DNA of 64,000 nt, taken from assembly GCF_964204645.1 (NCBI RefSeq), contig NC_134036.1, positions 7,850,812 to 7,914,811 of the forward strand, in the 5' to 3' direction. Both the position numbers and the translations under genes were made by a program. This document shows positions 29,201 to 60,200 of the stretch, piece after piece; the first letter of the stretch is position 1, and each line of letters begins with the position of its first letter. Source of the stretch: Tubulanus polymorphus (taxonomy: Eukaryota > Animalia > Nemertea). Below the pieces are notes generated by a model. That model saw nothing but the letters and a program-made list of their open reading frames with translations. It was not told where the DNA came from and ran no database searches.

Positions 29201-30214
29201 TAGAATGTTAAAGTTTTATCTAAAACAAGGAATGATCCTAAAAAAAAGTACGTAGATATATTTCATTTAGTCAATCTAAATGGTTAGAAAAATATATAGA
29301 TTTTAACACCAAACAGAGAACTAAAGCTAAAACTGATTTTGAGAAAGATTTATTCAAGTTAATGAATAATGCATTCTATGGAAAAACTTGTGAAAATATT
29401 AGAAATAGAAATGATATTGAGTTAGTTAGTAATGGTAAAAGAATTAGACATTTACAAACATATCCTAAATTTATGGGTAACAGAATATTTGATGAAAATT
29501 TAGCCGCTGTTAAAATGAGAAGAACATCAATGAAATTTAATAAACCAATTTATGTTGGTGCTTCAGTTTTAGAATTATCAAAGCTATTAATGTATGAATT
29601 CTATTATAATGTATTACAACCTCATTTTGGAGAAAAACATATAGAAATCTTATATTTTTATACAGATTCTTACATATTAAAGATAAAAACTAATAACATA
29701 ACTGATGATTTAAAAACATTAAAACATCATTTTGATTTCAGTAATTATCCTAAAGATCATGAATTGTTCAACAATGATAATAAAAAAGTTCCCGGGAAGT
29801 TTAAGGATGAATTAGGTGGTGAAGAAATGATAGAGTTCATTGGTATTAGATCTAAAATGTATTCATATAAAACTAAAGAACTTGAAGCTAAAAAGTTGAA
29901 AGGAATAACCAAAAGTGTAGTAGAAAAGAATATTCATTTCAAGGATTACATCAATTGTATATTCAATGAAGAAGTTAGAAAACACAAGATGAGATGTTTA
30001 AGATCTGAAGATAATGAAATGTTTATTGAAGATAAAAAAGAGTATTCTTTCTATTATAGAAAAGATAAGTCTAAACCCATTTGATGATAAAAGATATATT
30101 TTAGATGATGGAATTAATACAGTTGCATATGGTTGTAATTTAGATGAATACTTAAGATTTAAAAGAGAAGAAACAAAAGAGAAGGAAATAATGAAAAGGA
30201 TTATAACGTGTTAA
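26206..30214 (+). pseudogene. polB: pPolB pseudogene (intein-free allele)
   Basis: Multiple stops and frameshifts; FHNLSGYD, YIDANNLYGWAM, MNNAFYGK; motif C reads YFYTDSY. Confidence 0.92.
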
Positions 30215-30243
30215 TCAAATTTTAATAAAAATATGAATTATAA

Positions 30244-30597
30244 ATGGACAGTAAACAAGCACACAATGAGAACAACAAATTATTTCTAGATAGAATAAAA
30301 GATACTTCAAATGTCAAATCAGTAGATTATAAGTTTAAGAAGTTAAAAGAATTAACAATCCATAAGAAATATCTAATTACATATATTGATACAGTTACTA
30401 ACAAATATGGAGATAAATTATTTGTACACTTAGAATATGAAGGAATAAAAGAAAATACATATAAATACAGCACATATTTACCAGATAGATTTCATAGATT
30501 ATCAAGTGAAGATTTAGAAGAATTATGTTCTGGAGATTTCTATTTCATATACAAAGGTAAGAATGAAAAAGGGCACCATGAAATAGATTTCGAATAA
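30244..30597 (+). CDS. Small Polinton protein (117 aa), possibly OB-fold/SSB-like
   Basis: Intact ORF with TAAATG start; homologs at 2342-2680 and 46658-46903; the fold assignment is a guess. Confidence 0.65.
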   Translation: MDSKQAHNENNKLFLDRIKDTSNVKSVDYKFKKLKELTIHKKYLITYIDTVTNKYGDKLFVHLEYEGIKENTYKYSTYLPDRFHRLSSEDLEELCSGDFYFIYKGKNEKGHHEIDFE

Positions 30598-30615
30598 AAA
30601 AAATATGTAAAATAA

Positions 30616-31050
30616 ATGGTAGAATTAAAAGAATACAGAATATTTGTTGATTCTTGAAGACTTACAAATTATAAATCACATAATTTACTAGTACAATTAG
30701 ATAGAGAATTTAAGAATTGTGTAGATTTAAAATTAGTTAATATAAGTTTATGTAATTCTTTTTATAATATATCGAATAGAACTATTGAACATAGAGCCTT
30801 TTTAATTTTTGATAAAGGTAAAAATGAATGGTTTTATATATATTTAAAACCGGGGTTATATAATCTAGATACATTGGCACAAGAAATTAATAGAAAATCC
30901 TGGCACAAATTAGGTAGTAATTCCGGGTTTAGTATTAGATTTTTAAAAAGTGATAGTTCTGATAGAATAAAGATAAGGTTGTCTAATAGTGAAAAACATA
31001 AATTTATGGTAAAAAACATATAGCTAAACTGTTAGGAATTCTTCCAGATA
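30616..31050 (+). pseudogene. 5' part of minor capsid gene
   Basis: MVELKEYRIFVDS start identical to the 56342 gene; internal stop; truncated. Confidence 0.8.
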
Positions 31051-32001
31051 GATCTTTTAAAAATATTGATGATACTACACCAAACTTAATACGGCAGATT
31101 TTCATACAGAAATATTCACGAATTTCTCGTCCAAGTAAAAGATATATGTAGAAATTTACCACATAGTTACACATAAAAAAATTGTGTCAAAATATCATAT
31201 AGAAATTCTTTCTGTTCCGTAAGGATTGGTAAAAATGCAGCAATAGTGGTTGGAAGTGTGAATATTGCAAATGCGAGTGAAACTGTTACAAGCATCATCG
31301 TCGTACGTTTCGATTTTGTAGTTTTCTTATCAGGCGAAAGCATTTTTGTACCTCTGAATAACTTAATAATTATGATAGAATTTGATATTAGAATCAACGA
31401 TAAAGGCAAAACAAAAGCGTAGAAACCGAGTGGAGTAAGAAATTTAATTCATAGTAACTGGTCGGTAAAATGTATCGATAAAACAGCGGGAAGTTGAACC
31501 AGTACAGTCACTGTAGTAATTATCAATATAGCAAATCTAGCGAATCTAGGTGTACATATCAAACGAGAAGTGAACGGAAAGAGAACAACTGCCGCACGTT
31601 CTAGAGATATAGCTACCAATAACCAGGAACTGTTAGAATTGACAACTGCCATCAATATTTCATACATCTTACAACTGATCAGTGAATTCATGATGAATAT
31701 AAGACTACTAGTGTTTAGATTCAAGAGAACAAACTGTAAAACAGGCATCAGTGTAAAATGTATACAGAACAAGAAATCACAGACTGACAAAATGACAAGA
31801 TAGTTAGCTTCAGATGAATTGCGGAATTTGCGACTTGTCATTATGAAAAATGTAGCTGAATTGCCAAAGACTCCAAACAGAAACACGATAGGCAGAATGA
31901 CCAACGACACAGTACGGTAGATTCCAGACCGGTTCTCCATTAGACATTAGAACGACGTAACTGCTATAGGTTCGACCAATTCGAATCTTAGTTGAATTCA
32001 T
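31050..32001 (-). pseudogene. Intronless rhodopsin-class GPCR pseudogene
   Basis: TM1 GVFGN, TM2 LSVCD, TM3 SSWLLVAISLERAAVVLFPF, TM6 TMMLVTVSLAFAIFTLP, TM7 NFYIY in a shifted frame; several frameshifts. Confidence 0.85.
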
Positions 32002-32569
32002 GATTCACAAGAATTAACTCAGTTCGGTACACGCATTATAGCAATGTAACTGTTAAACTGCATCTGCTGAGTTGAATTCATGATTCGATTAAGTGTCAGA
32101 TGTATGTGGATTGATTGTATCAATAGACTGACGCGTCGTGCAAGCTATTTATTGTTCGCATCAAATGAAAAATAAATACTCAGAAATCTGACTCAATTTA
32201 CTCAGATCCAGTAAAAGATTATTAACCCATTAGCACTCAAGGCGCCCGTATGCGCCCTGCCTATTACTCAAGCCGTCCGAATCCGCCCGGCACTTTTTTC
32301 GTATGCTGCATGAAAACGGTTATAGTGGGATTCAAACCCAATAGTAAACTAGACACCTAAGTCCTCGAAATACCAAACAGAAATCAACATCCTCCTATTT
32401 CAATTTCTCGAGTATTTCGAATTTAAAAATGACACATCTGAGCGCTCACTTCAAATCCAAGTAAATGGATGAATTTCGGGGCCCAAAAATCATACATCAT
32501 ATGAAAGGCTTGATTATTTACTATAAAATAACGCTTACTTGAAATCCATGGAAATCGAGATCTCGAATA

Positions 32570-38546: not shown

Positions 38547-39158
38547 TTATTTTATAAATTTATCTCCATAGGGAAATTGTAGTCTCAGTAATAATTTTGA
38601 ACCTTTATTACTTTTTAATTCATTCATATATTCATCATGTAATTCAGTAGGTATAATTTGATTTTCTTCCAATGATTGTTGCATTGATTTTCTATCTTTG
38701 TTATAAAATAAAACTAAGAATATAATATTCTCTCTAAAATCTTTAACAATTGAATTATATTTTTGATTTAAAAACCAAGTTGTTATCCCAAAATGTCTCC
38801 CAGAGAAAGCTAAATAACATAACTCACTTTCTCTAACTTTTGAATCATGTAAATTTGCACAATCATCTAAAATGAATAATGTATTTGTTCCTTTGTAAAT
38901 ATCAATTGCTATTTTAATACAATTATCTAAATTTTCATTTACTATTTTAGAATCTAATATAATAAACGTTTTTATCTTAACTACATCCTTATTATATGTT
39001 TTATTCATTTAATAAGTAGGGCAAAATAATATTATATTATCAAAATGATTTTTATAAATAGTTTCTAATAAATCTAATACAAAATGTGTTTTACCACAAT
39101 TTGTTACTCCAGTAACTAACATATTATGTGGTTCAAATATAAATAAATCTTTATTCAT
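38547..39158 (-). pseudogene. Packaging ATPase pseudogene
   Basis: GVTNCGKT region upstream of a frameshift; LFILDDCANLHDSK...GRHFG nearly identical to the element A ATPase. Confidence 0.88.
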
Positions 39159-40222
39159 TTATTTTTTTAACTTTACTAGATAAAATCCATTCATTAAATT
39201 TATCATCATACCCTTTATATTTAAACAAAGAATACTTTTTTCCGTTAATAGTTTTTGTTTTCAATACCTTCTCTATTTTATATTCTATATCATCTTGATT
39301 TGGTACCAGTGATAATTCTTGTTCATAAAAATAACCTAATATTTCTTCATCTTTTAGATCTTCTAATTTTTAAACAAAAGGTTTAGTTAATATTATCATT
39401 TTAATCTTAAATATTTCTTCAGTAAAATTTGGAGTATAACCTTTATAAAATGTTTTTCGATATTTAGATATTCTAACAATTTTTTCCTATTTTAAATTTA
39501 GGTTCTCCAAAATCATGTGTAACAAACGCACCATATAAATTATTCCAAACTATTCATGAATTATCTTCTTTTCTAGCTTGTATAGGTTTCACACCAATAC
39601 TTGAATGTTTAGAATTATATTAACCTTTCAATAAATCATCTAACACATCGATATATTTATATGTTTCTTTTGCAGTGAAATATTTCCACATTCTAGTAGA
39701 ATCTTTCTATAATAGATGCTTTTTTATCTGAGTATGTAGAAAAATATTCTACATCGTTATTAAATAATATTTTTTTAAAATGTTTATTATAAATTTCTTT
39801 ACCTTTATCAAATCGTATCTAATCTGGAATAGGTTCTTTATATATTGATTTAAAAGTATTAGTAACTTCTATACCAGTTTTTTTTTAATTAGAATTGACC
39901 ATGCGTATCTACTGAATATGTCTATACCATTTAATATCCAGGAATATCCTTTGTTGTATTCTTCTAAGTTCTTCATATCAATTAAATCAGCTTGCCATTG
40001 TTGATCATTATATGAAACGATAACTTTTCTTGTTAAATAATTTTTATCCATTTTCTTATGTATTTGATATGTTGGTTGATTTTGTAACCATAATCTCAGT
40101 TCACTATATTTCATATTTTCTTTATCAGATTTAATTTCATCCCTTAATTCTGTAACGCTAGAATATGATACGTCACTCTCTGGGTTATAATATAAATCTC
40201 TTTAATATTGTTCTTTTTTCAT
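39159..40222 (-). pseudogene. RVE-chromodomain integrase pseudogene
   Basis: QQWQADLIDMKN...IDIFSRYAWS fragment (39869-40114) and nucleotide similarity to 48917-50044. Confidence 0.88.
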
Positions 40223-40581
40223 CTTATTTTAATCCATTAATAATAATCTTGGTTTATTTTCAATTACTTAATGATTTTACTAATTTTCAGGTATAATATG
40301 TTTATCATCGGAATCATTATTGTTATCATCAGATTTATACATATATTTATATATTACGCCGGAATACAATAACTGCGATTAACCCAATTGTAATATATAA
40401 GTAATTATTTCTTCCAGTATTAGAAGAATTAAATGATTATTATTCGAATCAATATCAGATAATTTCTGTGATTCATTTAAATCAGTTAATTTCTTTTTCT
40501 TAGCTTTTTTAATTCTGAAGATCTTTAACCTAATTCCCTAGCCCATTTAATTTGTTTTCAGGCTTCTTCTTAACATCATCA

Positions 40582-41203
40582 CTAATTTGGTTTAGTTAAT
40601 TTTTGTTCTGTTTCGATATTATCATCTGATTTATTTTTATCTTTACATACTATAGGTTTGATATAAGAAAATGTTATCACGCCAGTAGAAATTAATGTCA
40701 TTATTCCACCTAATTGAAATGAAGCGTACCCAACCCATTTTTGCAGTTCTGTCATAACTAAGTAGTCATTTTTTAAAATCTTTATGTAATTTATTTTCAT
40801 CATCAATTGGTATTACCCGGTTACATTATTTAGAATAACATTTAACTATTCCATCACTAATAGAGTCATTTATTCTAGCTAATCTAGCTTCTTCATATAT
40901 TTTGAAATGTTTGATTACTTTATCTGGTTTCATGGCATCTAATTTTTGATAAGTTATAATTTTTCCCAAGAAATCCTTAGATTTTCCACCAGCAATTAAT
41001 AACTCAAGATGGTGCTTACAATATAAGTAGTATTCAAAATCAATATTATTATTATTTTGAGCACAATTAGAAACAACTGTATCTTTATTATCTGTAATAC
41101 CTAAATCCTCAATTGTCTTTTCAATATTAATATTATTCTTATTAGATTTCTTTGAAATTTTTTTAGCAAAAAAAGCGGAAAAAATATTATACTTATTCTT
41201 CAA
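40582..41203 (-). pseudogene. Homolog of element A gene 47405-48011
   Basis: Shared YYLYCKH.LE.LIA.GK, KIYE.AR.A.IND.IS, LKNDYLVMTEL.KW.GY. Confidence 0.8.
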
Positions 41204-41354
41204 ATGATACTAGCCATTTGAAGTTAAAGAATTTTAAATACTAGCTAGTTGAAGATTTGAGATATATTAATATTTAACCACTCAATAAAGATTCAACATA
41301 TTCTTCATTATCTGGATCACTATTCCATAATTCAATGAATTTCTTTGCTTTATC

Positions 41355-42047
41355 TTATTGATCCAAATATAATTTCATATCAAGTTTGTTAGACTTAATT
41401 TTTTTTTTCTTTTCAATGGGTCTTAGATTATTCCAATTCCAAATTAGTTTTTTTATTGTATTCATCACTCATGTTAAAATTAAGATATTGGTAACACGTG
41501 ATCAATATGAAAATAATTCCCATAATTATCTTTATTCATTTCATCATCGAACTGATATATAATCCATGATTTGAGAAATTCATCTGAACAATCCAAGGAA
41601 TTTTGTTAGCGTTTCTAAATGCGTTTCTTTACTGAATAATTTTGATGATCTATTTCTCAAACATTGTTTCATTTTAAAATTAAGATCTGTTTGACGCCTT
41701 TCTTTTTGATCATTATTACTGTAATCATAATAATGTTCACGATTATCTTTTTTCCAATCTCTAATATATTCTGGATTATTTTTTCTCCATTGTTTTTTCG
41801 TTTCATTACATTTTTCTAGATTATTTAGAAAATATTGTTTACTTTTTTCTTTACATTTTTCAATATTATCTATATAATATTGTTTATAATATAGTTTATT
41901 CTTCTGTTTCCAACATGTTTTACAATTATTTCTTAAACCATCTTTCTTAGTTTTTTGTGTGTAATATTCTGTAAATGGCACATTCAATTCACATTTTGAA
42001 CATTTCTTATGGTGAATATTGATAGTTTGTGACTGTTTACTCTCCAT
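41355..42047 (-). pseudogene. Zn-ribbon/HNH-like endonuclease of the type common in large DNA viruses
   Basis: KKCSKC...DGLRNNCKTC, basic helical repeats, RRQTDLNFKMKQCLRNR, and after a frameshift WIIYQFDDEMNKDNYGNYFHIDHVLP...NWNNLRPI. Confidence 0.72.
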
Positions 42048-42074
42048 TTATAATATATATATTTTTTTTTATTG

Positions 42075-46541: not shown

Positions 46542-46662
46542 AGTAATTAGAATATGTGGCTTTCAGGCCAGAGGACGAGAGGACGAGACACCACTCATCA
46601 CCACAAGTAATTTTTTTCCTAACACTCATCACCACAAGTAATTTTTTTTCCTAATAAATGGG
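46542..46662 (+). repeat. Left TIR of element A (121 bp)
   Basis: Matches the reverse complement of 62341-62453 apart from one extra 8-bp unit (GAGGACGA); contains a tandem CACTCATCACCACAAGTAATTTTTTT(T)CCTAA duplication; ends in TAAATGGG. Confidence 0.95.
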
Positions 46663-46903
46663 AGATAGAAAAGCATTCTTAGCAACAATAAATAACAGAA
46701 TAAAACCAGCAAAAAAACAATTTGAAATAAAAAAGTTAGTTGATGTTACAAAAGAAATTGAACATAAGATATTGAAATTAGAAAAGATAAAAACTAAATA
46801 TGGAGAGAAAGTATCAGCTAATTTAAGCTACTGTAATGTTAGTACATCGCGAGAATTTAAAGTGTTTTTACCCGATAAATGGGTTTCATTGAGTACATCA
46901 TGA
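46658..46903 (+). CDS. Small Polinton protein homologous to 30244-30597 (possibly truncated)
   Basis: KTKYGEKV...VFLPDKW aligns with TNKYGDKL...TYLPDRF; start codon lies inside the left TIR. Confidence 0.6.
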   Translation: MGDRKAFLATINNRIKPAKKQFEIKKLVDVTKEIEHKILKLEKIKTKYGEKVSANLSYCNVSTSREFKVFLPDKWVSLSTS

Positions 46904-47103
46904 TTTAGAAATTGTTGATTAAATTTAAAAAAAAATAAATTAATAGAAATAATGAATATCTAGAATCCGAAATGACTTATCTGGACAATTTAATTGCTCC
47001 ACATAGATGGTGCCATAAACAGCACCCACACAGTGATAGACAAAAGTAGTGAGATATTCAATTAATTAAAAAAAATTATTTTTTTTGCTTTTTTTCTAAA
47101 ATA

Positions 47104-47472
47104 TTAATCCATTTTTTTTATTATCAATTTTGGAATTTCAGAAGTACTTTCAATTTTGATAGCAGTTGGTTCAGAATTACTAATATCATGAATTTTATTT
47201 GATTTCTTATACCAATTACACCCAATCAAAATGAATACAATTACAAATCCAACTGTAAAATATAGATATTTATCAAATATTCTACTATCAGAAGGAGTAG
47301 AAATAACAATATTTTCACCATTTTTATTAACATTTTTATTACTTATTTTTTCTTTTACAGCTTTTTTATATTCTTGTGATTTAATTCCTAATTGTCGAGA
47401 CCATTCAATTTGTTTCTGAGTTCTCGGTTTTTTCTTCACAGTTAATTCCTTCACTTCTTTCACTTCGCTCAT
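47104..47472 (-). CDS. Basic single-TM protein (122 aa)
   Basis: KKPRTQKQIEWSRQLG N-terminus, TM YLYFTVGFVIVFILIG; decayed homolog at ~40229-40600. Confidence 0.7.
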   Translation of the reverse strand: MSEVKEVKELTVKKKPRTQKQIEWSRQLGIKSQEYKKAVKEKISNKNVNKNGENIVISTPSDSRIFDKYLYFTVGFVIVFILIGCNWYKKSNKIHDISNSEPTAIKIESTSEIPKLIIKKMD

Positions 47473-48011
47473 TTATTATAGAAATATTTTTACTTTCAAT
47501 ATTTGAAAATGTTATAACCCCGGTTGATAATAATGTCATAAATCCACCTAATTGAAATGATAAATATCCAATCCACTTATTTAATTCAGTCATAACTAAA
47601 TAATCATTTTTTAAATCGGAATATAATCTATTTTCATCTTCAATTGGTAGTATATAATTACATAATTTACTATAACCTTTTACTACATTTTCTGATATCG
47701 CGTCATTGATTTTAGCTGTTCTCGCGGCTTCATAAATCTTAAATAATCTAATTATTTCATCTGATTTCATTGTGTCTAATTCATTATAAGTTAAATTTTT
47801 ACCAACAAAATTTTTTACATTTTCCAGATGCTATTAATATTTCTAATTGATGTTTACAATAAAGATAATATTTATAATTATTATTTGTTGTAACAATATT
47901 TAAAGCACCATCATCTGGAGTTAATTTTGTTTCTGTTATTCCTAAATCATCTAAAGTTTTTTCAATTGGAACATCACCATTTTTAGATTTTATTTTCTTT
48001 TCACCTCCCAT
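47405..48011 (-). pseudogene. Polinton hypothetical protein, frameshifted near 47810
   Basis: The 70-aa and 121-aa ORFs align end to end with the sister-copy ORFs 40826-41203 and 40582-40806. Confidence 0.75.
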
Positions 48012-48043
48012 TTATATAACAAAAAAATTAATTGTGTGATGTT

Positions 48044-48307
48044 GCAACTAGAATTCAACTAGAATGTAACTAGAATTCAACTAGATTAACAAGCTAGTTG
48101 AAATATTGTTGTTTTTTGTTTATTTCTTGTTAAATCTAGTTGATTTTTGTTTCAACTACTAACAACTAGAATTCAACTAGAATATAACTAGAATTAAACT
48201 AGATTAACAAGCTAGTTAAAATATTGTTAAATCTAGTTGATTTTTGTTACAACTACCAATAACTAGAATTCAACTAGAATTCAATTAGATTAACAAGCTA
48301 GTTGAAT
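48044..48307. repeat. Internal non-coding repeat array of element A (CAACTAGAATT units in three blocks)
   Basis: Blocks at ~48044, 48163 and 48260 each end in ATTAACAAGCTAGTT; CAACTAG and CTAGTTG occur in both orientations. Confidence 0.85.
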
Positions 48308-48916
48308 TTAAATAAATTCATATTTAAATGGGTGTTGTAATCTAAATAGTAATTTTGATCTTTTAATATTTTTCAACTTATCCATATATTCATTATGTAA
48401 ATCATGTGGAATAATATCATTTTCCTCAAGTGCATTTTTCATCGATTTTCTATCTTTATTGTAGAATAAAACTAGAAATCTAATGTTTTCTCTAAAATCT
48501 TTAATAATTTAATTATATTTTTGATTTAAAACCCAAGTTGTTATCCCAAAATGTCTTCCAGAGAAAGCTAAATAACATAACTCGCTTTCTCTAATTTTAG
48601 AATCATGTAAATTTGCGCAATCATCTATGATAAATAATGTATTTGATCCTTTATAAATATCAATTGCTATTTTTATACAATTATCTAAATTTTCTTTTAC
48701 TGTTTTAGGATCTAATATAATAAATTTATTATTTCTAGTAATATTTCTATCATAAGTTTGATTAAATTCATATGTTGGACAAAATAATACTATATTATCA
48801 AAATAGTTTTCATAAACAGTTTCTAATAAATTTAATATAAAATAAGTTTTTCCACAATTTGTTACACCAGAAATTAACATATTATGAGGCTCAAATATGA
48901 ATAATTCCTTATTCAT
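48308..48916 (-). pseudogene. A32/FtsK-like packaging ATPase with one in-frame TAA (48509-48511)
   Basis: Walker A GVTNCGKT, Walker B LFIIDD, GRH motif; frame continues after TAA (the sister copy has Ser there) to a stop at 48308. Confidence 0.88.
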
Positions 48917-50044
48917 TTATATATTTTTAATTTTACTTGATAATATCCATTCATTGAATTTATCTGGCCATCCAACCCATTTTACTAAAGAATATTTTTT
49001 TCTTTTAACAGTTTTTGTTTTTAGTACTTTTTCAATTTTATATTCTTGTTCTAGATTTTCAGTAGTTAAACTTAATTCTTCTTCATAAAAATATCCATCA
49101 ACTTCTTCACCATCTAAATCTTCTAATTTATAGACATATGGTTTTGTTGTTATTACCTTTTTTATTTTATATATTTCTCTAGTAAAATTTCGATCGTATC
49201 CTTTGTCAAATATCTTTTTATACTTAGAAATTCTAACATTTTGACCAACTTTAAATTTAGGTTCACCAAAATCATCAACAAGAAATGCTCCATATAAATT
49301 ATTCCAAACAATTTCAGCATTTTCAGGTTTTCTAGCATCAATAGGTTTCATTCCAATAGAAGAATGATAAGAATTATTATATCCTTCTATAAATTTTGGT
49401 AAAACATCAATCCATTTATAAGTATTATTTGCTGTGAAATATTTTGACATTCTTGTTCTCAATGTTCTATTAAATCGTTCAACAACTGCTGCTTTTTTAT
49501 CTGATTTTGTTGAAAAATATTTAATATTATGAAAATCTAAAAGTCCATGAACTAATGAATTATCAAATTCTTTTCCATCATCAAATTGAATTTTTTCTGG
49601 TTTTAGTTTACCACCTGAAAGAAATTTTCTTAAAACATTTGATGTTTGTACAGCATCTTTTCTATAAAGTGGGAAACTCCATACATAACGACTAAAAATA
49701 TCAATTATATTCAATAACCACCAATAATCATCATTATCTTTCTTAACATTTTTCATATCAATTAAATCTCCTTGCCACTGTTGATCTACATAACTTACCA
49801 TAGTTTTACGAGTTTTATATTTTCTAACAATTTTTTTATGTGTTGTATATGTTGGTTGTTCTAACATAAATTCATTTATATCTTTATATTTAACTAAATT
49901 TTGTGGGATTATCTTATCTAATTTATCTTGTTTTACTTTACGCCATATATTTTTAGTAGAAGAATAAGCAACCGAACTCTCAGGGTTGTAATATAAATTT
50001 CTTAAATATTGTTCTTTAGTATTAGGAGTTTTTTTACCACTCAT
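48917..50044 (-). CDS. Retroviral-type (RVE, DDE) integrase with C-terminal chromodomain
   Basis: WQGDLID, IQFDDGKEF and AAVVERFNRTL catalytic motifs; YNNSYHSSIGMKP; chromodomain YKIEKVL...SLVKWVGWPDKFNEW; intact 375 aa. Confidence 0.95.
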   Translation of the reverse strand: MSGKKTPNTKEQYLRNLYYNPESSVAYSSTKNIWRKVKQDKLDKIIPQNLVKYKDINEFMLEQPTYTTHKKIVRKYKTRKTMVSYVDQQWQGDLIDMKNVKKDNDDYWWLLNIIDIFSRYVWSFPLYRKDAVQTSNVLRKFLSGGKLKPEKIQFDDGKEFDNSLVHGLLDFHNIKYFSTKSDKKAAVVERFNRTLRTRMSKYFTANNTYKWIDVLPKFIEGYNNSYHSSIGMKPIDARKPENAEIVWNNLYGAFLVDDFGEPKFKVGQNVRISKYKKIFDKGYDRNFTREIYKIKKVITTKPYVYKLEDLDGEEVDGYFYEEELSLTTENLEQEYKIEKVLKTKTVKRKKYSLVKWVGWPDKFNEWILSSKIKNI

Positions 50045-50074
50045 TTATATATCCTTAATTTTAACTTTATATTT

Positions 50075-51321
50075 CTAATATTGAATACTATCTAATTGTG
50101 AATTTACAATATTTAATTGTGCGTCAGATATAATATAAATGTGCATTTTAAAATTTTTGATTCCTTTATTCTTTTTCATGAATAATTGTATTCCATCGTT
50201 AGTGTTCTGTAGTTTTTTTCCAGAACCATGTAATAAGTTATCTTCAGTTGTTCTAAAATCTAACCATAATGCATATTTATTACCGGTATAATAATCAATT
50301 TGATTAATGTTACAATTTTCAGATGATTTCACTTTTTCATTCATAAAATGTTTTCTAATTTCTGGCCATTGATCAATCATTCTCATTCCTTGACAAAATA
50401 TTTTATTCGCTATTCCTTCGATAGTTATTTCTACTTTTGTTATTTCAGGATTATAATAATTATCAACATTTATTGCACCATTAGAATATGTTGCAATAGT
50501 AAAAAATATTAATATACCTTTAATAGATCTTCTAGGAAAGTTAATATTCTCATTAATTATTTCATCATTTGCATTAATAGTTACAGTTTTAAATTTATCA
50601 ATATAATCATATAATAATGAAAATCCTTGATTGTATTGAGTTTGAATTGTGCTAGCAATATTTTCATTAGTTATTGTGTTATATTCTAAACATATATTCG
50701 ATAATTTATAACTCATATCTTTAACAACGCTAGATAAAAAATTTCATTTACAGGAGCAAATGTTATCTCAAATATAATATCTTCTTGAATTGCGTATTTA
50801 TATAAAGGTGCATTATTATTTATCAATTCAAAGTCTAATGGAATTTTATATTTGCTTCCATAAATCTTTTTAATCAAATTATCTGTGGCACGAGTTACTA
50901 CTGCATTATTGGCTTCAGATCTTAATTTATTATGGTTTTCCGATTGGATGCCTTGAAATATCATATTATTTCTATTTTCTTTAGTTAACCATAAATCTTT
51001 ATAATGCATAAATAAATTATAATCATCTAATGAGAAAACTGTTTCTGGACCAATCTTTATAGTTAACTTTTTAATCAAATATCTTCCAACATTATCAACA
51101 ACATAATTGTTATCATGGCCAGTTACTTTTATATCGGCTGATAAATAAATACTGTTTGGAACATAAAAAGTATTTTGTGTTAATCGAGGGATTCTAACAT
51201 ATAAAGTTTCATCGGGATTAATATTTGAAGGGTTATGAGTAATTATATGATGTGATCTTTCTGCTTTAATAGCATTAGATATTCTATGATTCTTCGAAGG
51301 ACTTATATAACTCCCACTCAT
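50075..51321 (-). pseudogene. Probable major capsid protein (double jelly-roll), split by a 1-nt frameshift in a T run at ~50736
   Basis: The 202-aa and 213-aa ORFs join to ~415 aa by adding one T to a T6 run; beta-rich; THNPSNI...LYVRIP, YKIPLDF, LSNICLEY, YALWLDFR; position in the structural module. Confidence 0.7.
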
Positions 51322-51364
51322 TTATTTAACAAAAAATTAATTATTTATTTTTTGATATCATGGT

Positions 51365-52802
51365 TTACTTGATATTTTTTGATATCATATTTACTAAACC
51401 AAAAATAATAGCACTTACAACTGTAATTAAAAATAAAATAATATGTTCAGCAGCAAAGTTAATAATGTTTCCTGTAGATTTCAATATAAAACCAACAATT
51501 GAAGCAATAACTCCTGGTAAAGCTGCAGCAGATTTCTTTGATAGTTCCCATAAATATTTTGCTAATTTCTTTAAACCATCCTTAACTTTATCTTGTATAG
51601 AATTATTACCTGGAGGTTTATCTGGTTTGTTAGGAGTGGGAGTAGGAGTAGATTTCAAAGCATTTGATATAGCTAAACCTATTGTTGTAAATAACATAGT
51701 AACAGATGTTAGAATTGAAAGAATTGTTATTCCTTCTAATTTAAATAATAATTTTATTCTGTCTTTCAATGATATTTTAGAATCTGGTTTTATCAACAAA
51801 TCTTTAAAAATAACTTTTAATCTATTAATATTATAATCATATGATTTTAACAATAATTTAATTTCTTCTTTTTGTAATTCTATGTTATATTCTAAATCAT
51901 CTTTTTCTTTTTCTAAACGTAATTCTTTTTGCCTATATTCTATTTCATCAATTACTTGATGATCTAAATCAGACTTTAGTTGTTCTATTTCTTTATTTTT
52001 ATCAGTTAATTCTTTTTCTAAAGTTCTAATTTTAAAATCTCTTATACTTTTATTATGTGCAATTTTATCAGATGCAAGTCTTATACTAATAATTTCTCTA
52101 ATTGCTTTATCAGAAAATATATTTAAATCTTTTAATTGTTGATTTGTTGCATCAAGTAATCCATTTGGTAAAAGTTTTACAGTTTGAACTTTATTTGATT
52201 TAAGTTTACTATTTTTGGAAGTTATATTCTGTTCAGAAGTTGTTTCTGTTTCTAAATTTTCATTAATTAACTTAAAAAATTTAGCATTTCTTTGTTTAAA
52301 TTCTTTTATATTATAATCTCTTTCTTCTTGTGTAACATCAATTATAGCATCATTTTTTATTTTCTTAATTCTAGATTGTTCTAATAAATTAAAAGTTGAT
52401 TGTGTTATTATTTTGTCACTATTTTTAAGATTTGAAATCTTAAAATAATAGTCGCCTTTCAATTTCCAATAATATTCACCATTTAAAAATTTTAAATCTT
52501 CTACTAAATGATCCATACCTTTATTTGTTATATTGAAACCAGATTTTTCTAATATTGGTTTAAATTTATGAATAATTTCATTATAATTGTATTCTTTTTC
52601 TGTTATTTCTGGTACTTCATTTTCAATACTTATCTTTGAACGTGCTTTGTCAATAAATTGGGGTGTAGTTAAATTAGAATATATATGCTGATTCATTACC
52701 ATCATTAAAACTTGTTTCATCAAAATCAGGTGGTTGTTCATCAGTTATACCAGGTTCATCAAAAGGATCCATTCCAATATCTTCTACACCTTCTACATCC
52801 AT
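51365..52802 (-). pseudogene. Coiled-coil protein with C-terminal TM segments; frameshift near 52680
   Basis: TAAATG start at 52802 (acidic MDVEGVEDIGMDPFDEP...) shifts frame in a (TA)n tract into the 458-aa ORF; long coiled coil, TM, PT-rich linker, C-terminal hydrophobic helices. Confidence 0.7.
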
Positions 52803-52818
52803 TTATATGATAAAAAAA

Positions 52819-53055
52819 TTAAAATTTAAAATATAATATTCCTCCGATTACAATTCCTATACAAGTTATAGCTAATTTAGTATTTTCATGGGATTTATTA
52901 TCATCATTTAGTTTAATTATATCATGTTGAATTTTATTAGTTTTTATATTTTCTGTAGTATTGTAATCTTTTATTTTAGAATCATTAACCAATTTAATAT
53001 TCTTAGTTTTAGTTTCTGTTGATTGAATATGTTTTTTATTTTTTTCACCTTCCAT
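52819..53055 (-). CDS. Small C-terminally anchored membrane protein (78 aa)
   Basis: C-terminal hydrophobic segment LAITCIGIVIGGILYF; TAA-ATG junction with the upstream gene. Confidence 0.65.
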   Translation of the reverse strand: MEGEKNKKHIQSTETKTKNIKLVNDSKIKDYNTTENIKTNKIQHDIIKLNDDNKSHENTKLAITCIGIVIGGILYFKF

Positions 53056-54120
53056 TTATTTTGGAGCAGTAATAATCTTTTTATTTATATCATTCAATCC
53101 AAATGAATTATTTATTGTTGCAGTTTTAATTAGATTATTATAACCAATTATATTTCCCATCTTCAATACTAAATCATTAGAAATAATTAATAGATTAGAG
53201 CCTATACAATAATTAAGTCTTACATGAGATTTATCTAAATAATTTTGATATCTTATAATGTTTTCTGGAATCGATCTATTTTTATCATTATGAATTGAAT
53301 CTTCAAATAAAACTTTAAACTGTTTCTGCGCATCGAATGAAGTGTTATCATTTCCAATTATTGGGGATCTTGTTTCAACTTGAGCGCCTAAAATACATAT
53401 CAAATAAATTCTAATAGATTGATTTATTCTTTGTATACCTGATTTTGTAAAACCTTCACCATTTTCTAAAATGAAATTAACCCAACCATTATTATTATCA
53501 ATTTTATAATTATGATAAGCTGAAATTCTATGCATATAATCAATTCTTTTTATTTCATACTCTTCACCAACACCTTGCAATTTACCATGCGCTCTGAAAT
53601 CGGAATTAATATTTATATTAAATTCATTACATATTTTATAAAACTTGGATATATTAATATTATTATCCAATTCTTTAAAATATTTAGACTCGGGTAAAGG
53701 ACATTCTAATTCATTTAATATTATTCTGATTTGAAAATATGTGTGAAATCTAAATATTGTGTGAATTAATTTTAAATCAGAATACTTCAAATTTTTATCT
53801 AAGTTATTTAAATGATCATTCCAACTAATTCCACATCCTGTTGTTGCACAATAAACAGCAAAATTTAATTGATTCTGCCAATATTTCATATTAGATTTTA
53901 CTTTATATATATGATATTCATCTCGAGTAAAAGTAACTTCATATGTATTAAATATATTTTCCATTTTAGAAATAAAAAACTGTGATTCATTAACATAAAT
54001 TTCTAAATTAGTTAATGAATTTAAAACTATATTTTTATATGTAATATTTTTCTGAAAATCTATTGCTGGAATATTATATTTAATTGATTTATTATATTGG
54101 AAAGCTTTTGGAAACCCCAT
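53056..54120 (-). CDS. Polinton-like hypothetical protein (354 aa)
   Basis: Long intact ORF with WQNQLNFAVYCATTGCGIS motif; TAAATG start. Confidence 0.75.
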   Translation of the reverse strand: MGFPKAFQYNKSIKYNIPAIDFQKNITYKNIVLNSLTNLEIYVNESQFFISKMENIFNTYEVTFTRDEYHIYKVKSNMKYWQNQLNFAVYCATTGCGISWNDHLNNLDKNLKYSDLKLIHTIFRFHTYFQIRIILNELECPLPESKYFKELDNNINISKFYKICNEFNININSDFRAHGKLQGVGEEYEIKRIDYMHRISAYHNYKIDNNNGWVNFILENGEGFTKSGIQRINQSIRIYLICILGAQVETRSPIIGNDNTSFDAQKQFKVLFEDSIHNDKNRSIPENIIRYQNYLDKSHVRLNYCIGSNLLIISNDLVLKMGNIIGYNNLIKTATINNSFGLNDINKKIITAPK

Positions 54121-54136
54121 TTATATAACTAAAAAA

Positions 54137-54571
54137 TTAATAATTTATTAATTCTTTTAATAATTTATCTTGTTCTTCAACTGTTATATGACCATTTAAA
54201 CTTATTATATAATCTAGTGTGTTCTTTAATTTATTAATTTCTTTTATATTAGTTTTAATTTTTTCTTTATTACTTTTTATATTTAATTTTGAACTTATAC
54301 CAGTTAAAACACTTGAACTTAATCCTAACACACCAATTGATATAGCTAAAGGTGTTAATGGACTGAATATTGCTAGAAATGTTATTACAGAACTAATTGT
54401 AACCGAACCACTTATAATCAAATAATATATAATTTTACTTTTTAAATATTTTTTCTTTTTTATCTTTAAGTCACTTTCAAATTCTAATATTTGTTTTTCG
54501 AAATATGTTTTTAATTTAGTTTTATTTATATCATGAGGAATAATATCAATACTATCAACTTTATCTTCCAT
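54137..54571 (-). CDS. Two-TM membrane protein (144 aa)
   Basis: Hydrophobic hairpin IIYYLIISGSVTISSVITFLAIF...LAISIGVLGLSSSVL flanked by coiled coils; TAAATG start. Confidence 0.7.
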   Translation of the reverse strand: MEDKVDSIDIIPHDINKTKLKTYFEKQILEFESDLKIKKKKYLKSKIIYYLIISGSVTISSVITFLAIFSPLTPLAISIGVLGLSSSVLTGISSKLNIKSNKEKIKTNIKEINKLKNTLDYIISLNGHITVEEQDKLLKELINY

Positions 54572-54590
54572 TTATTTAGAATAAAAATTA

Positions 54591-54961
54591 CTAATTAGTA
54601 AACTTATAAGCAACAAATATAACAATAACAGTTCCACCTAAAATCCAAATTATTTCATATTTCTGTTGTTCTTTACTCGGGGTATAATAATCTGATAATT
54701 TAGGTTTGTATAGATGTAATTTTTCTTTATTTGTTACTGCGTTATATAAACTCATTGCATCATCAACTGATTGAAAATCTCTATGTGAAATCTTCTGATC
54801 ATATAATTCTTTATTGATGTAATCCATATAGTTTTGTCTCTTTTCTCTATATTCTTCTGCAGCTTTATTGTATTTCTCTAACGCTAAGTTATGTCTTCTT
54901 TGTTCTCCTAATGAACTATTTTTATTGCCGATCCTATAATAGTTATAATTGCAGAAGCCAT
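54591..54961 (-). pseudogene. Small coiled-coil/C-terminal TM protein, frameshifted near the 5' end
   Basis: TAAATG start at 54961 (MASAIITIIGSAI) is out of frame with the downstream EQRRHNLALEK...DYINKEL...IWILGGTVIVIFVAY reading frame. Confidence 0.6.
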
Positions 54962-54985
54962 TTATTTAACAAAAAAATTATGTAT

Positions 54986-55207
54986 TTATATGGGAGGAAT
55001 ATATTTTTGTTTTTCCAAGTAATCAATAGTTAAATTAGATAAAGTAACTGCTAATGTTAATTTTAAAATATCATTTATATCAAATCTATCAACATTAACA
55101 CTTCCCATTTTGAATACTTTTTTTAATACCATTGAATAACCAACAGTTCCAACTGATAGTAATGCGCCATTATATAATCCAGTTATTATCCACTTATTAT
55201 CACTCAT
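54986..55207 (-). CDS. Small hydrophobic protein (73 aa)
   Basis: Two hydrophobic segments; start abuts the upstream stop (TAA-ATG); homolog fragment at 1112-1189. Confidence 0.7.
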   Translation of the reverse strand: MSDNKWIITGLYNGALLSVGTVGYSMVLKKVFKMGSVNVDRFDINDILKLTLAVTLSNLTIDYLEKQKYIPPI

Positions 55208-55567
55208 TTATTTATCAAAAAAATTACTATCATCAAAATATTTAGTTAACTTATTTATGATTAATTCAACATTTATTTCATTACTAGTTTTATGATTATC
55301 ATATATTTCGGTTAATATGTTTTTAATATCATCGATGATAAAATCTTCATCTAATTCATAAAATCTTAAAGATTCTCTAATTAAATTAGTAATCTTTTCT
55401 ACATTTAAAATTTCTTTATCTATTGTTGTTTCATACTCAAATGTTGTTTCATTAGAAAATGTAATATTTTTGATATGTGTTATTACATCATTAATGTTAA
55501 ATTTCATTTCTTTCTCACGTTTAAAATCAAATCCAAAACATATACTCGGTCCAACAGTTATATTCAT
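55208..55567 (-). CDS. Polinton hypothetical protein (119 aa)
   Basis: Intact ORF, TAAATG start, homolog at ~1190-1550. Confidence 0.7.
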   Translation of the reverse strand: MNITVGPSICFGFDFKREKEMKFNINDVITHIKNITFSNETTFEYETTIDKEILNVEKITNLIRESLRFYELDEDFIIDDIKNILTEIYDNHKTSNEINVELIINKLTKYFDDSNFFDK

Positions 55568-55583
55568 TTATAAAGGTGAAAAA

Positions 55584-56342
55584 TTACTCTTTACATCTTA
55601 TAACTAATTCATAAATTACAGGAAAGTTATTCAAATCAATTAAATAACCATTATGATTTCTTATTTCTAATTTAAAATTATTGAAATGTGGAATACAAGG
55701 TTTGAAATCACATTCGGTTAAATTATAATTTATTTGCGTTCCAAATTGTTTGACATTTTTTAATGGTAAAATATTTAATAAACCAGAATTACAAATTGTA
55801 TCTTTAGTTGCTTCAAATGTTTTTGTAGGATCGATTAAATTGCAATAAATATAAAAGTGTGTAAAAGGTATTATATTTGAGTTACCTTCTGCGTATGCTG
55901 TAACGGTATCTGGTGCAATTCCTAACAGTTTAGCTAAAGGTTTTCTTATTGTAAATTTAAATTGTTCGTCATTAGCTAACCTAATCTTTATTTTATTAGA
56001 ACTAGCACTTTTTAAAATTCTAATACTAAATCCGGAATCACTTCCTAATTTAGCTCGAGCTTTTCTATTAATTTCTTGTGTTAATGTATCTAAATTATAT
56101 AATCCTGGTTTTAAATATATAAAAAACCATTTATTCCTTTTTTTGTAAAAGATTGAAAAAATTAAATGTTCTAGACTTTTATCCGATATATTATAAAAAG
56201 AATTACATAAACTTATATTAACTAATTTTAAATCTACACAATTCTTGAATTCTCTATCTAATTGTACTAGTAAATTATGAGATTTATAATTTGTAAGTTT
56301 TCTAGAATCAACAAATATTCTGTATTCTTTTAATTCTACCAT
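55584..56342 (-). CDS. Probable minor capsid (penton, single jelly-roll) protein
   Basis: 252 aa; FYIYCNLI...LLNILP and C-terminal KLEIRNHNGYLIDLNN pattern typical of Polinton minor capsid proteins; homologous copies at 1567-2320 and 30616-31050. Confidence 0.65.
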   Translation of the reverse strand: MVELKEYRIFVDSRKLTNYKSHNLLVQLDREFKNCVDLKLVNISLCNSFYNISDKSLEHLIFSIFYKKRNKWFFIYLKPGLYNLDTLTQEINRKARAKLGSDSGFSIRILKSASSNKIKIRLANDEQFKFTIRKPLAKLLGIAPDTVTAYAEGNSNIIPFTHFYIYCNLIDPTKTFEATKDTICNSGLLNILPLKNVKQFGTQINYNLTECDFKPCIPHFNNFKLEIRNHNGYLIDLNNFPVIYELVIRCKE

Positions 56343-56410
56343 TATTTATAACATAAAAAAATTACCGCTCATCACTAAAAATTAATTTTAATAAAATTTT
56401 TCCTTAATAA

Positions 56411-57274
56411 ATGGATGAGAAGATAGCATGCGAAATTTGTGGTGAACTTCTAAGAAAAAGTAATAAGGCTCGACATATGAAAAAACATGATGAAAATTAT
56501 AAACCCCCTAAAATAAACTGTCCAAAATGTAATAAATTATTCTCAAGAAATTATGTTAAAAAACATTCAGAGAAGTGTAGAATTAATGGTGCAACGGCTA
56601 ATGTTGATAGTAATTCTGCTGAAGTTGAACCTGAAGTTATTTGGAAAAGACCTTTCTTATTCTAGGATAATATAAAAGATCATTTCTGTGAGCCTTGTCA
56701 AGTAAAATATAACCCTGAAAATATAGAAGATTGGGAGAATCATCAATTTCGTAAAGCACATATAGATAAAATTTCTAATAAATTTGAAACTGAATTCAAT
56801 GAAAGAAAAAATAATTTATTAGAAAAAATAAAATATGAGAAAACGTTACCAGATAATGAAGAAACAGTTGAAAAGTTAGAAAAACAATATAATGAATTAA
56901 CAAGAAAAACATATTATTGTAAATATTGTAAATTGATTATTACAACAAGTAATTCAAATCTACATAATAGAACAATAAAACATAAAGAAAACGTAAGAAA
57001 ATACCAAGAGCTTAATGAAGATCTATTACCAATAAATTATAAACGAAAATGCCCACAATGTAGTTATGCGACCTTAAGACAAGAAGGTACTGTGTTATTT
57101 TGTGTTGAATGTGGATGGCAAAAGAATTTATGGGGTGAAGAAAAAACTAGAGATTTTCTCATAGAACCAAAATTAAATTATCTAGATGAAATTTTTAAAA
57201 TATTTTCTATAGAAGATCATACACCAGAATATATGCAATATAAGCCAATAGTGATTTCGAGTTTGATGATATAG
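56411..57274 (+). pseudogene. Multi-zinc-finger protein with one in-frame TAG (56663-56665)
   Basis: The 84-aa and 113-aa ORFs join in frame through an open 89-codon stretch (FCEPCQ...H...H, YCKYCK...H...H); also CEIC...H...H, CPKC and a C-terminal CPQC...CVEC ribbon; TAAATG start. Confidence 0.75.
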
Positions 57275-57281
57275 ATCCATT

Positions 57282-60200
57282 TTAATAACCATAAGGTAAT
57301 GTTTTTATACCATCATCTGAAATATGCCTTTTATCATCAAATGGATTTAAACTAGTTTTTTCAACTTCATTAATGTACATCTCATGATCTTCTGATCTTA
57401 AACAATTCATCTTGTGTTTCATTACAATTGATTTATATAAACACTTTATATAATCTTGAAATTCTATATGTTTATCAACCACATGTTTTGTTATTCCTTT
57501 TAACTTTTTAGCTTCATGATCTTTTGTTCTATAACTATACATTTTACTTCTTATCCCAACAAATTCAATCATTTCATCACCTCCTAATTCATCTTTAAAT
57601 TTACCAGGAATCTTTTTATTATCATTGCTAAATAGTTCATGATCTTTAGGATAATTGCTAAAATCAAAATAATGTTTTAATGTTTTTAAGTCTTTTGTTA
57701 TATCATTTGTCTTGATTTTTAGTATGTACGCATCCGTATTTTTTTGGATTAATGGGAACCCAGAATTGAATGTTCCATCATCTGTTGATAAATCATAAAC
57801 ATAGTCAGTAGGGTTATATATTTCAAATAAATCTTTAATTTCTTCTATTAATTCTTTTTCTACATGCCTTAAATTAAAACAATTTGGTTTAGATTTAATT
57901 AATTCTATATTCATATTAAATCCTAATGAACTACATAACACATTTAACCCACTTATTGCACATTTTCCTTTCTGTGCAAAGGTTATCGTTTTATCCCTTA
58001 TAAATTTTTTAGTACCATCGGCTGCGTAGAACCCAATGAAGAACCATTTTCTAAGATTATATTCTGAATTTAATATATAATCTGGTACTATTTTTTCTTT
58101 AGTTGAAGTATTACTTTTCACTATTGCATGAATATAGAATTCATCATTATATTTTATAGCAAAATCTTTAGGATTATTTACAAGTATTCTATAAACTGCT
58201 GATGATTTCATAACATCCATGATTTTAAAAGTTTTATGTGAATAAACTTCTTCACAGAATTTCTTAATTCTTTCTAATAATTTTAAGTCTTGATTGCATA
58301 AATACCAACAATATTTATTACCCCAAACATATTTATACACACCTGCTGAACCATCACCCATGAAAAATCCTTTGATAAAATATTCTTTTTCTTCTAATGT
58401 TTCAGGTTCTATATTATAAATATTATCAATTATTTCATCAAATGACATATGATTCATTCTTGGGAAAAATCTTTTATGTAATAATTCATCTCCAATTTTT
58501 ATATCGGTTGGTTTTATTTCATCACCATTTCGTTTAATTATACTGTGGTCTTCAGTAACATCTACAAACCCTAATTTAGTTCTAACTCTATAGATTTTCT
58601 TATTTGTTTTATGCCTAATAATATTCTTTAATTTTTTCCATCCATTTCTTGTCCAAACATCCATTAATCCATTTATTTGTATTAATTCTTTTTCACCATA
58701 TGAAATATAACATTCATTTTGTTTTGGAATTATTTCTGAAATTCTTCTTACTAATATTTTATTATTACATTTTAATAATATTGGGGTGTCGGCCGTTACA
58801 GAATCGAAGTACAGAATTTCTATATGTTTTTCCCCAAACAATGGTTGTAATACATTGTAATAAAAATCATACATTAATAATTTTGATATTTCTAAAACTG
58901 TTGAACCAATGAAAATGGGTTTATTAAATTTCATTGACGTTCTTTTTAATTTTACTGCTGTTAAATAATCTTCAAATCTTTTATTTCCTAAATGTCTAGG
59001 ACTTGATTGTAGGTGTCTCAATCGTTCAGAATTATTTACTAATTCAATATCATTTCTATTTCTAATATTTTCACATGTTTTACCATAAAAACTATTGTTC
59101 ATTAATTTGAAGAAATCTTTTTCAAAATCTGTTTTTGATATGGTTCTCTGTTGAGTATTGAAATCTATATATTTTTCTAACCACTTCGATTGATTAAATT
59201 CAATATATCTATGTACTTTCTTTAATTTCATTCCTTGTTTTAGATAAAATTTTAACATTCTATAATGAACAATATAATTGTATTTATTATTTTGAGTAAG
59301 TATTAATTTTTCTGTAAAAACATGATCTTTCGGTTTTATTTTCTTCTGGTATTCACTTAAATAACTATCATCTACAGTTAAATGTTCTGGGCAATAAGGT
59401 AAGTTTCTTGTTTTAAACTTTATATTTTCAGGATATTCTAAATCAACTACAAAGAAATAACCAATTGGTGCTTCATCTTCTAAACTCATAATTGCGATTT
59501 CGCAATTAGTTTTATCATCATTTTCAACTTCTATTAATATAAAATTTTTATATGGTTGAGGTTGCATCATTGCCCAACCATATAAATTATTGGCATCAAT
59601 ATATAATAATTTATATTCATCATTTGCTTTAAAATACCTATCTCCCATAACACCACTAATTCCACCTCTAATTGATTTTTCAAATAATAAAACCATATCT
59701 GGTTCTTTTAATAAATCTAATTCTACATTTGTATATTTTAAACCACATTGCCAGGTTAAACCAGGACTAGAATAACAATAACAAGGATCAACATTAAAAT
59801 GATTCAAATTAACTTCTCTAAATTTTTCAAATATGTCAGCCAATATCATAACATCTGATTTTAAATATAAATCAACTAATTCGCCATGATTTTTCATCTT
59901 AAAATGGTTCTAAATATTTAATGTTCTATTAAACACTTCGTCTTTCACATACTCCTCTTTTAATTTATTATAAAATTGATCTTTTAATAATTCTGTTACA
60001 TTAAAATCATTATGTGTTTTATAAAATGAATAAGGAATTGCGCCTTTATATCTCAATAATTTAAAATCTTGTTCATTTGGATAATAATATCGAGTTATAA
60101 CAAAATCATTATCAACTAAACTTTTTGATAAATTATCTAATGAACTTGCTAGAAATCTATAAGAATCTAAAAATCTAATGCAACCAAATTGAAATGAAAT

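What the first reader, a model, noticed from the sequence alone, without database searches (positions are those of the whole stretch)
29641..58820. Intein-positive and intein-free alleles of the same polymerase sit in one locus
Seen: copy C (29650-29675, YFYTDSY) and copy B (~42330-42355, YFDTDSY) lack the insert that A carries, while the surrounding protein is closely similar. This fixes the intein boundaries and shows the family is polymorphic for it. Inference: a homing cycle operating among endogenous virus copies, with targets available in the host chromosome.
Basis: partly seen in the sequence, partly recalled or inferred. Interest (0 to 1): 0.75.

Follow-up and report, generated by a model that had tools for sequence, protein, structure and literature searches.

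The report
Homing intein in animal Polinton polymerase
A virus-like Polinton transposon in an animal chromosome carries an intein (an insert predicted to cut itself out of the protein) with an intact-looking DNA-cutting domain in its polymerase's active-site motif; the two insert-free neighbours belong to a different Polinton family, but near-identical with/without pairs in other records suggest the intein likely still spreads by homing.

Summary
Copy A, a 15.9-kb Polinton/Maverick with terminal inverted repeats and a 6-bp target duplication, has a 355-residue intein (57738-58802, minus strand) at the D|T of polymerase motif C; copies B and C lack it. They are not alleles of A. They form another family (about 72-77% nucleotide identity, different termini) and both are decayed. 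In another individual's reads the A family looks mostly intein-positive and B/C-type genes empty; no within-family polymorphism was seen in this host. The homing idea is supported elsewhere. Intein presence changes at least 6 times on the polymerase tree. Two other Polinton families hold with/without copies at 94-99% identity; in one, all 10 fixed differences crowd around the site. The endonuclease is as conserved as the splicing domain. Polinton inteins form one clade among giant-virus-type PolB inteins, and one sits in a polymerase only about 20% identical to the rest. Splicing and cutting are untested. Nine paper searches found no description of a true intein in a Polinton polymerase or in animal nuclear DNA.

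The parts
46542..62453 (-). Copy A: full-length Polinton/Maverick, 15.9 kb
   Evidence: Inverted termini that differ by one 8-bp indel over about 115 bp; GATGTA on both sides; 21-26% GC in its inner bins against about 35% in flanks
57282..62345 (-). Copy A protein-primed DNA polymerase gene with intein; one in-frame stop at 59910-59912
   Evidence: ORFs of 811 and 875 aa in one frame; 58% identical over 1110 columns to P0001, which carries PF03175
57738..58802 (-). Intein, 355 aa: Ser1, block B T83-x-x-H86, LAGLIDADG motifs with D150 and D262, block F D337, Lys354-Asn355, followed by extein Thr
   Evidence: PF14528 29.9 bits (cut-off 22.5); TIGR01445 30.3 bits (cut-off 24.5); model pLDDT 87.7, best folds are endonuclease-bearing inteins
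48917..50044 (-). Copy A retroviral-type integrase with chromodomain
   Evidence: PF00665 above cut-off, PF00385 E 2e-4
48509..48916 (-). Copy A A32-like packaging ATPase (ORF ends early)
   Evidence: PF04665 E 4.5e-11
50075..51321 (-). Copy A probable major capsid gene, in two frames
   Evidence: PF16903 Capsid_N E 0.0013, below cut-off, on the first piece
25767..31050 (+). Copy C: truncated, decayed Polinton of a second family; polymerase about 26170-30134, empty site at 29661/29662
38554..46014 (-). Copy B: decayed Polinton of the same family as C; polymerase about 42150-45780, empty site at 42343/42342, deletion just after it
   Evidence: 91% identical to C upstream of the site
31449..31946 (-). 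Host rhodopsin-class GPCR fragment (broken); marks the host as an animal
   Evidence: PF00001 above cut-off and PF10324 Srw; stops in the frame. That class A GPCRs are animal genes is recalled knowledge

Best explanation
Copy A is a Polinton whose protein-primed polymerase carries a full intein in catalytic motif C; the intein is predicted to splice out to restore the motif and likely spreads by endonuclease homing between closely related Polinton genomes, not from A into the distant B/C family. Steps: (1) shown: in-frame insert at D|T with splicing residues and two LAGLIDADG motifs; (2) inferred: splicing through Ser1, Asn355 and extein Thr; (3) inferred: the lineage entered Polinton polymerases once from giant-virus-type PolB inteins at the equivalent motif, and jumped at least once between very distant Polinton polymerases; (4) inferred: it persists by cycles of invasion, near-fixation and loss within families, copying short flanking tracts and leaving empty copies with altered sites; (5) in this host the A family appears near fixation and B/C empty, probably because B/C are too diverged to be cut or repaired from A, or because the integrated copies are silent.
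For: Extein tree of 33 rows, intein and flanking columns removed: A(+) is sister to empty P0212 (100/99), nested with the empty C clade (100/100); P0001(+) is sister to empty P0221; at least 6 changes; one intein-positive clade rejected, p-AU 3e-85. P0002 cluster: of 15 listed members (136 in all) 13 span the site, 7 with and 6 without the intein, the empty ones 94-98% identical to P0002; all 10 extein positions with no residue shared between the groups lie from -7 to +44 in 1191 residues (Fisher p 1e-11, window chosen after seeing the data); the six empty copies show three site sequences, the seven full ones one. P0138(+) and P0141(-) differ at 0 of 169 downstream and 6 of 577 upstream residues, 4 of them at the ragged N-end. 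Endonuclease identity matches splicing-domain identity (A versus P0001 64% and 67%); D150 is kept in 73 of 73 aligned inteins, D262 in 95%. Seven Polinton inteins form one group, 100/100, among PolB inteins; the best IMG/VR matches are giant-virus MAG contigs at 42-43% with YGD|...|TDS ends. P0004: exteins 20-23% but intein 45-49% identical to the other five.
Against: No splicing, cutting or expression data. In this host no empty A-type and no full B/C-type copy was seen (only the best-supported rows are listed). Apart from P0004, intein identity tracks extein identity (40-68% against 45-66%), which also fits one old gain with many losses. The AU test does not reject P0004 lying outside the other Polinton inteins (p 0.26). 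Site-clustered differences between empty alleles were seen in 1 of 14 further pairs. The with/without pairs are predicted proteins from unnamed assemblies; host, DNA and whether they share one genome are unknown. A shows no rise in DNA identity to B or C at the site. No dN/dS was computed.
Confidence: 0.7

Rival explanations
1. One reading: A, B and C are alleles of one family, and A-type copies home into B/C-type chromosomal targets in this host.
For: The protein around the site is nearly the same in A, B and C. LAGLIDADG enzymes often tolerate silent changes (recalled). The families have exchanged or shared modules: a neighbouring gene is 85% identical between A and C/D while the polymerase is 74%. 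Homing between paralogues is reported in Anaeramoeba (PMC10710043, passages).
Against: 72-77% DNA identity and different termini; A's nearest relatives are other records, not B/C; no identity peak at the site. About 14 locus-equivalents of A polymerase coexist with a similar or larger number of B/C-type copies, yet no intein joined to a B-type flank is among 15 of 316 joints listed, while 85 reads show the empty B/C-type junction.
Confidence: 0.12
2. Old single acquisition, vertical inheritance and repeated precise loss or overwriting by empty alleles; no current homing.
For: Intein and extein identities are congruent for 5 of 6 compared polymerases; the A family looks nearly fixed here; the tract in the P0002 family could come from empty donors overwriting full alleles.
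Against: The endonuclease should decay without homing, yet its catalytic residues are invariant and it is as conserved as the splicing domain; P0004 needs a horizontal step; 119 of the 120 listed relatives of C have no intein, so many exact losses would be needed.
Confidence: 0.15
3. The insert is a non-splicing nuclease domain fused into the polymerase, like the HNH and VSR inserts known from other Polinton polymerases.
For: PF14890 scores 28.3 bits, below its cut-off of 35.8; the penultimate residue is Lys, not His.
Against: All other splicing residues are invariant, the model has the two-part intein fold, the insert splits the catalytic motif, and Lys-Asn ends are common in this intein family.
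Confidence: 0.03

Closest known systems
Mimivirus PolB intein and other Nucleocytoviricota PolB inteins (PMC549080, part 1 of 3 read; PMC5784728, passages)
   Same: About 350 aa, Ser first, Asn last, Thr after, LAGLIDADG domain, in a family B polymerase; 33-43% identical to full-length matches in giant-virus contigs at YGD|TDS. That the Mimivirus intein sits at this same motif is recalled, not read.
   Different: The host protein is a protein-primed polymerase of an integrating Polinton, and the copy lies in an animal chromosome. I did not compare with the Mimivirus sequence itself.
Inteins in endogenous viral DNA polymerases of Klebsormidium, Tetrabaena and Honda fermentalgiana; inter-paralogue homing in Anaeramoeba (PMC10710043, passages and section 8)
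   Same: Intein in a viral-like polymerase on nuclear scaffolds; spread among copies within a genome proposed.
   Different: Those hosts are algae and protists; 'animal' and 'metazoa' occur 0 times in that text, and it was not among the hits for intein + Polinton.
HNH, GIY-YIG and other nuclease inserts in Polinton polymerases (PMC11071308, one passage)
   Same: Nuclease domain inside a Polinton polymerase; the authors suggest such inserts result from intein invasions.
   Different: That is one speculative sentence with no splicing domain described in the passage; here a complete splicing domain with LAGLIDADG sits in the catalytic motif, with exact empty alleles.
Endonuclease-bearing inteins with solved structures (TliVMA 7qsu, PI-PkoII 2cw7, PI-PfuI, PI-SceI)
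   Same: Fold of splicing domain plus two LAGLIDADG halves (Foldseek E 7e-18 to 3e-11).
   Different: 11-18% identity; other host proteins and organisms.

Membership tests
Canonical intein with LAGLIDADG endonuclease | In-frame insert at a conserved site with empty homologues | tested here: met
Canonical intein with LAGLIDADG endonuclease | Ser/Cys first, Asn last, Ser/Thr/Cys after | tested here: met
   S1, N355, Thr; S1 and N355 kept in 73 of 73
Canonical intein with LAGLIDADG endonuclease | Block B TxxH and block F Asp | tested here: met
   T83, H86, D337 kept in 99-100% of 73; block names recalled
Canonical intein with LAGLIDADG endonuclease | Penultimate His (usual, not universal) | tested here: not met
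   Lys354; Lys, His and Ser all occur there in relatives
Canonical intein with LAGLIDADG endonuclease | Profile match to the splicing domain | tested here: inconclusive
   TIGR01445 above cut-off; PF14890 E 1.8e-6 but below cut-off
Canonical intein with LAGLIDADG endonuclease | Two LAGLIDADG helices ending in acidic residues, intein fold | tested here: met
   D150, D262; PF14528 above cut-off; model and fold search
Canonical intein with LAGLIDADG endonuclease | Protein splicing and cleavage of the empty allele | not testable with these tools
   Needs bench assays
Polinton/Maverick (copy A) | Terminal inverted repeats and 6-bp target duplication, 15-25 kb | tested here: met
   15.9 kb (feature list recalled)
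Polinton/Maverick (copy A) | Protein-primed polymerase, retroviral-type integrase, A32 ATPase | tested here: met
   Integrase and ATPase by Pfam. Polymerase by homology to P0001 (PF03175) and named arthropod and echinoderm proteins; Pfam gave no polymerase hit on A itself
Polinton/Maverick (copy A) | Double jelly-roll capsid and cysteine protease | tested here: inconclusive
   Weak Capsid_N hit; no protease among 15 A ORFs scanned
Allelic pair (A versus B/C) | Same element family: near-identical DNA and termini | tested here: not met
   72-77% DNA identity, different termini, separate branches
Giant-virus PolB motif C inteins | Insertion at D|T of motif C and sequence kinship | tested here: met
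Giant-virus PolB motif C inteins | Host protein is a PF00136-type PolB of a giant virus | tested here: not met
   Host is a Polinton protein-primed polymerase; Polinton inteins form their own branch

The most novel reading that the evidence does not exclude
Animal Polintons run a live intein homing cycle: a giant-virus-derived meganuclease intein invaded their polymerase, jumps between distant Polinton lineages, and selects for escape variants right at the catalytic motif, with integrated chromosomal copies serving as targets and as a reservoir of resistant sites. This would put a working intein and homing endonuclease in animal nuclei.
Probability: 0.4. Interest if true: 0.85.

Novelty: new variant of a known kind. 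Interest (0 to 1): 0.68.

Why it matters
A 2018 survey places eukaryotic inteins in fungal and some protist nuclear genes, algal chloroplasts and giant viruses, and lists no animal nuclear case in the passages read. An intact-looking one inside an animal-integrated Polinton extends that range. It is a molecular trace of contact between Polintons and giant viruses, since the intein must have met both polymerases in one cell. A conserved homing endonuclease also implies that Polinton genomes meet and recombine, which bears on whether they are active viruses. Multi-copy families with full and empty copies let the homing cycle (invasion, co-conversion, escape, loss) be read from genomes, and the endonuclease is a candidate natural meganuclease from an animal setting.

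Tried and rejected
No whole genome is held, so the genome-wide census was replaced by reads. No RNA holder was listed; this says nothing on expression. The marine metagenome X5 gave only short pieces and was not used. Scans of viral and metagenome contigs gave 37 and 80 loci, best identity over the whole intein 43%, so no DNA of a close Polinton intein and no dN/dS. A local identity peak between A and B/C at the site was sought and not found. Site-clustered variation among empty alleles: 13 of 14 pairs negative. P0004 nested among the Polinton inteins: not established (p-AU 0.26). P0082 and P0120 carry a PF03175 tag but also PF00136/PF03104 and group with PolB inteins, so they were not counted as Polinton. 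The Atlas look-up of P0002 gave only scores under 0.9 and is not used. Rows left out: 16 of 69 aligned rows (mis-aligned fragments such as P0172 and P0175, and near-duplicates); 33 of 69 kept; P0004 was left out of extein trees as too distant. Earlier scan notes held nothing on this intein.
Full report
Observation. C reads YFYTDSY (29653-29673, +), B reads YFDTDSY (42351-42331, -), and A reads YFD, a 355-residue insert (57738-58802, -), then TDAY. The insert has the GC and third-position GC of its flanks (25% and 15%), so composition gives no sign of recent foreign origin.

What A is. A spans 46542-62453, with inverted termini differing by one 8-bp indel and GATGTA on both sides, which suggests a young insertion. 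It encodes an integrase with chromodomain, an A32 ATPase, a probable capsid and a long polymerase: a Polinton/Maverick. This copy is broken: an in-frame stop at 59910-59912 and a capsid gene in two frames. That stop is not seen in the reads of either run laid there. A broken class A GPCR at 31449-31946 marks the host as an animal (inference from recalled knowledge).

What the insert is. It starts with Ser, ends Lys-Asn and is followed by Thr. T83, H86, D337, D150 and D262 are kept in 95-100% of 73 aligned inteins. It passes PF14528 and TIGR01445 and misses the PF14890 cut-off. The model (pLDDT 87.7, pTM 0.90, 49 sequences) best matches endonuclease-bearing inteins. It splits motif C, so an active polymerase would need splicing (inferred).

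B and C are not alleles of A. B and C are 91% identical upstream of the site; A is 72-73% to them upstream and 77% to C downstream, with no peak at the site. Termini differ. On the extein tree A is sister to an empty polymerase from another record (P0212, 86%), and C groups with empty P0209, P0211 and P0468. Both B and C are decayed: stops and frameshifts, Tyr for the first motif Asp in C, a deletion after the site in B.

Population in the host. About 12% of one raw-read run (X6, same species label, another sample) was laid on the window. On A, depth was about 228 over the first half of the intein, 279 over neighbouring extein and 20 in one flank bin: ratio 0.82, roughly 14 and 12 locus-equivalents, resting on a single flank bin. 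No joint skipping the intein is among the 15 of 64 listed, so a common empty A allele is unlikely; one or two cannot be excluded. Reads leaving A's terminus run into varied flanks (436 reads, agreement 0.37), so A has many insertion sites. 85 reads join a B-type empty site to an undeleted downstream part, and no joint from intein to B flank is among the 15 of 316 listed. The picture is one family mostly full and another empty.

The intein across Polintons. Six of the 120 listed longer hits (330 in all) are Polinton-type polymerases with the intein at the same position (P0001-P0005, P0087); nearly all the rest carry PolB domains. The 21 best of 40 shorter hits are 44-74% identical, many with Polinton extein pieces. 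Of 120 listed relatives of C (1327 in all), 119 have no intein. With intein and flanking columns removed, presence changes at least 6 times among 33 rows and one positive clade is rejected (p-AU 3e-85). Positive and empty rows came from different searches, so frequencies mean nothing, but the sister pairs do not depend on that.

True with/without alleles. In the P0002 cluster (136 members, 15 listed, 13 spanning the site) 7 have the intein and 6 lack exactly its 346 residues, at 94-98% identity. The 10 positions with no residue shared between the groups all lie from -7 to +44; none lies in the other 1140 or so. The empty copies show three site sequences, one with Cys for the motif Thr; 5 of 43 variable positions among five of them (the most divergent left out) fall in 11 residues at the site (p 2e-5), against 0 of 30 among the full copies. 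This is what co-conversion or escape from cutting predicts; the direction cannot be told. In a second family P0138(+) and P0141(-) are almost identical. In the family nearest B/C, empty P0211 and P0468 differ at 7 of 1241 residues, 5 within 15 of the site, but 13 other pairs show no such cluster. Cluster 2 members lie on contigs up to 1 Mb; their hosts are unknown.

Origin. Seven Polinton inteins form one branch (100/100) among PolB inteins, including giant-virus MAG loci at YGD|TDS; the root is not inferred, so giant virus to Polinton rests on the greater diversity on the PolB side. Among five polymerases intein identity tracks extein identity, so spread is mostly within lineages. P0004 breaks this: 20-23% in exteins, 45-49% in the intein, best explained by a horizontal jump, though its exact place is unresolved.

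Mechanism. Most likely (0.7) the intein splices out, and its endonuclease cuts empty motif C sites of close relatives, which are repaired from the full copy. Families go to near-fixation, lose the intein or keep altered sites, and are re-invaded. Shown: anatomy, distribution, conservation, tracts. Inferred: splicing, cutting, direction, and whether homing happens between integrated copies or only between free viral genomes. B/C are probably out of reach.

What is known. Nine searches (intein with Polinton, Maverick, pPolB, adintovirus, protein-primed, metazoan, Preplasmiviricota and related terms) found no description of a true intein in a Polinton polymerase. PMC11071308 (one passage) only suggests that nuclease inserts came from intein invasions. 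PMC12220804 (passages) treats GIY-YIG and HNH genes. PMC5784728 (passages) and PMC7765530 (passages) place inteins in fungi, algae, unicellular eukaryotes and giant viruses. PMC549080 (first third) describes the Mimivirus PolB intein. PMC10710043 (passages, section 8) reports inteins in endogenous viral polymerases of algae and a labyrinthulid. The nematode Polinton preprint has 0 occurrences of 'intein' (listing only). No supplements were read; those of PMC10710043 and PMC11071308 could list such inteins, and subscription journals, Repbase and InBase are outside the library.

Verdict. Real and unusual: a new host class and setting for a known intein family, with good comparative evidence of homing. 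The title claim of alleles in one locus is wrong, and the evidence for homing comes from other records. Interest 0.68.

Noticed in passing
window 57803-58003: Read depth falls to 68 against about 230 in the rest of the intein with no deletion joint listed: most A-family copies seem more than 12% diverged from this copy in the second half of the endonuclease, which suggests mosaic intein variants.
   Followed up: partly
window 25767-25955 and 2846-2967: The ends of copies C and D are fold-back palindromes: the terminus is followed at once by its inverted copy.
   Followed up: no
window 1103-2967: A fourth piece, D, shares its end with B (96%) and goes straight to the genes that follow the polymerase in C and A; it lacks the polymerase and looks like a deletion derivative.
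   Followed up: partly
window 55121-56347, 30610-31050, 1103-2326: A DUF5901-like gene is 85% identical between A and C/D while their polymerases are 74% identical, pointing to module exchange between the families.
   Followed up: no
P0022, P0093, P0101, P0199: Relatives of this intein also occur in proteins tagged as DHFR-thymidylate synthase, topoisomerase II and ClpP: possible non-allelic spread.
   Followed up: no
window 3693-4246 and 6021-7059: Arrays of a repeat of about 185 bp in both orientations.
   Followed up: no
window 41580-42047 and 30244-30597: B and C, though 91% identical in the polymerase, carry different genes right after it.
   Followed up: no
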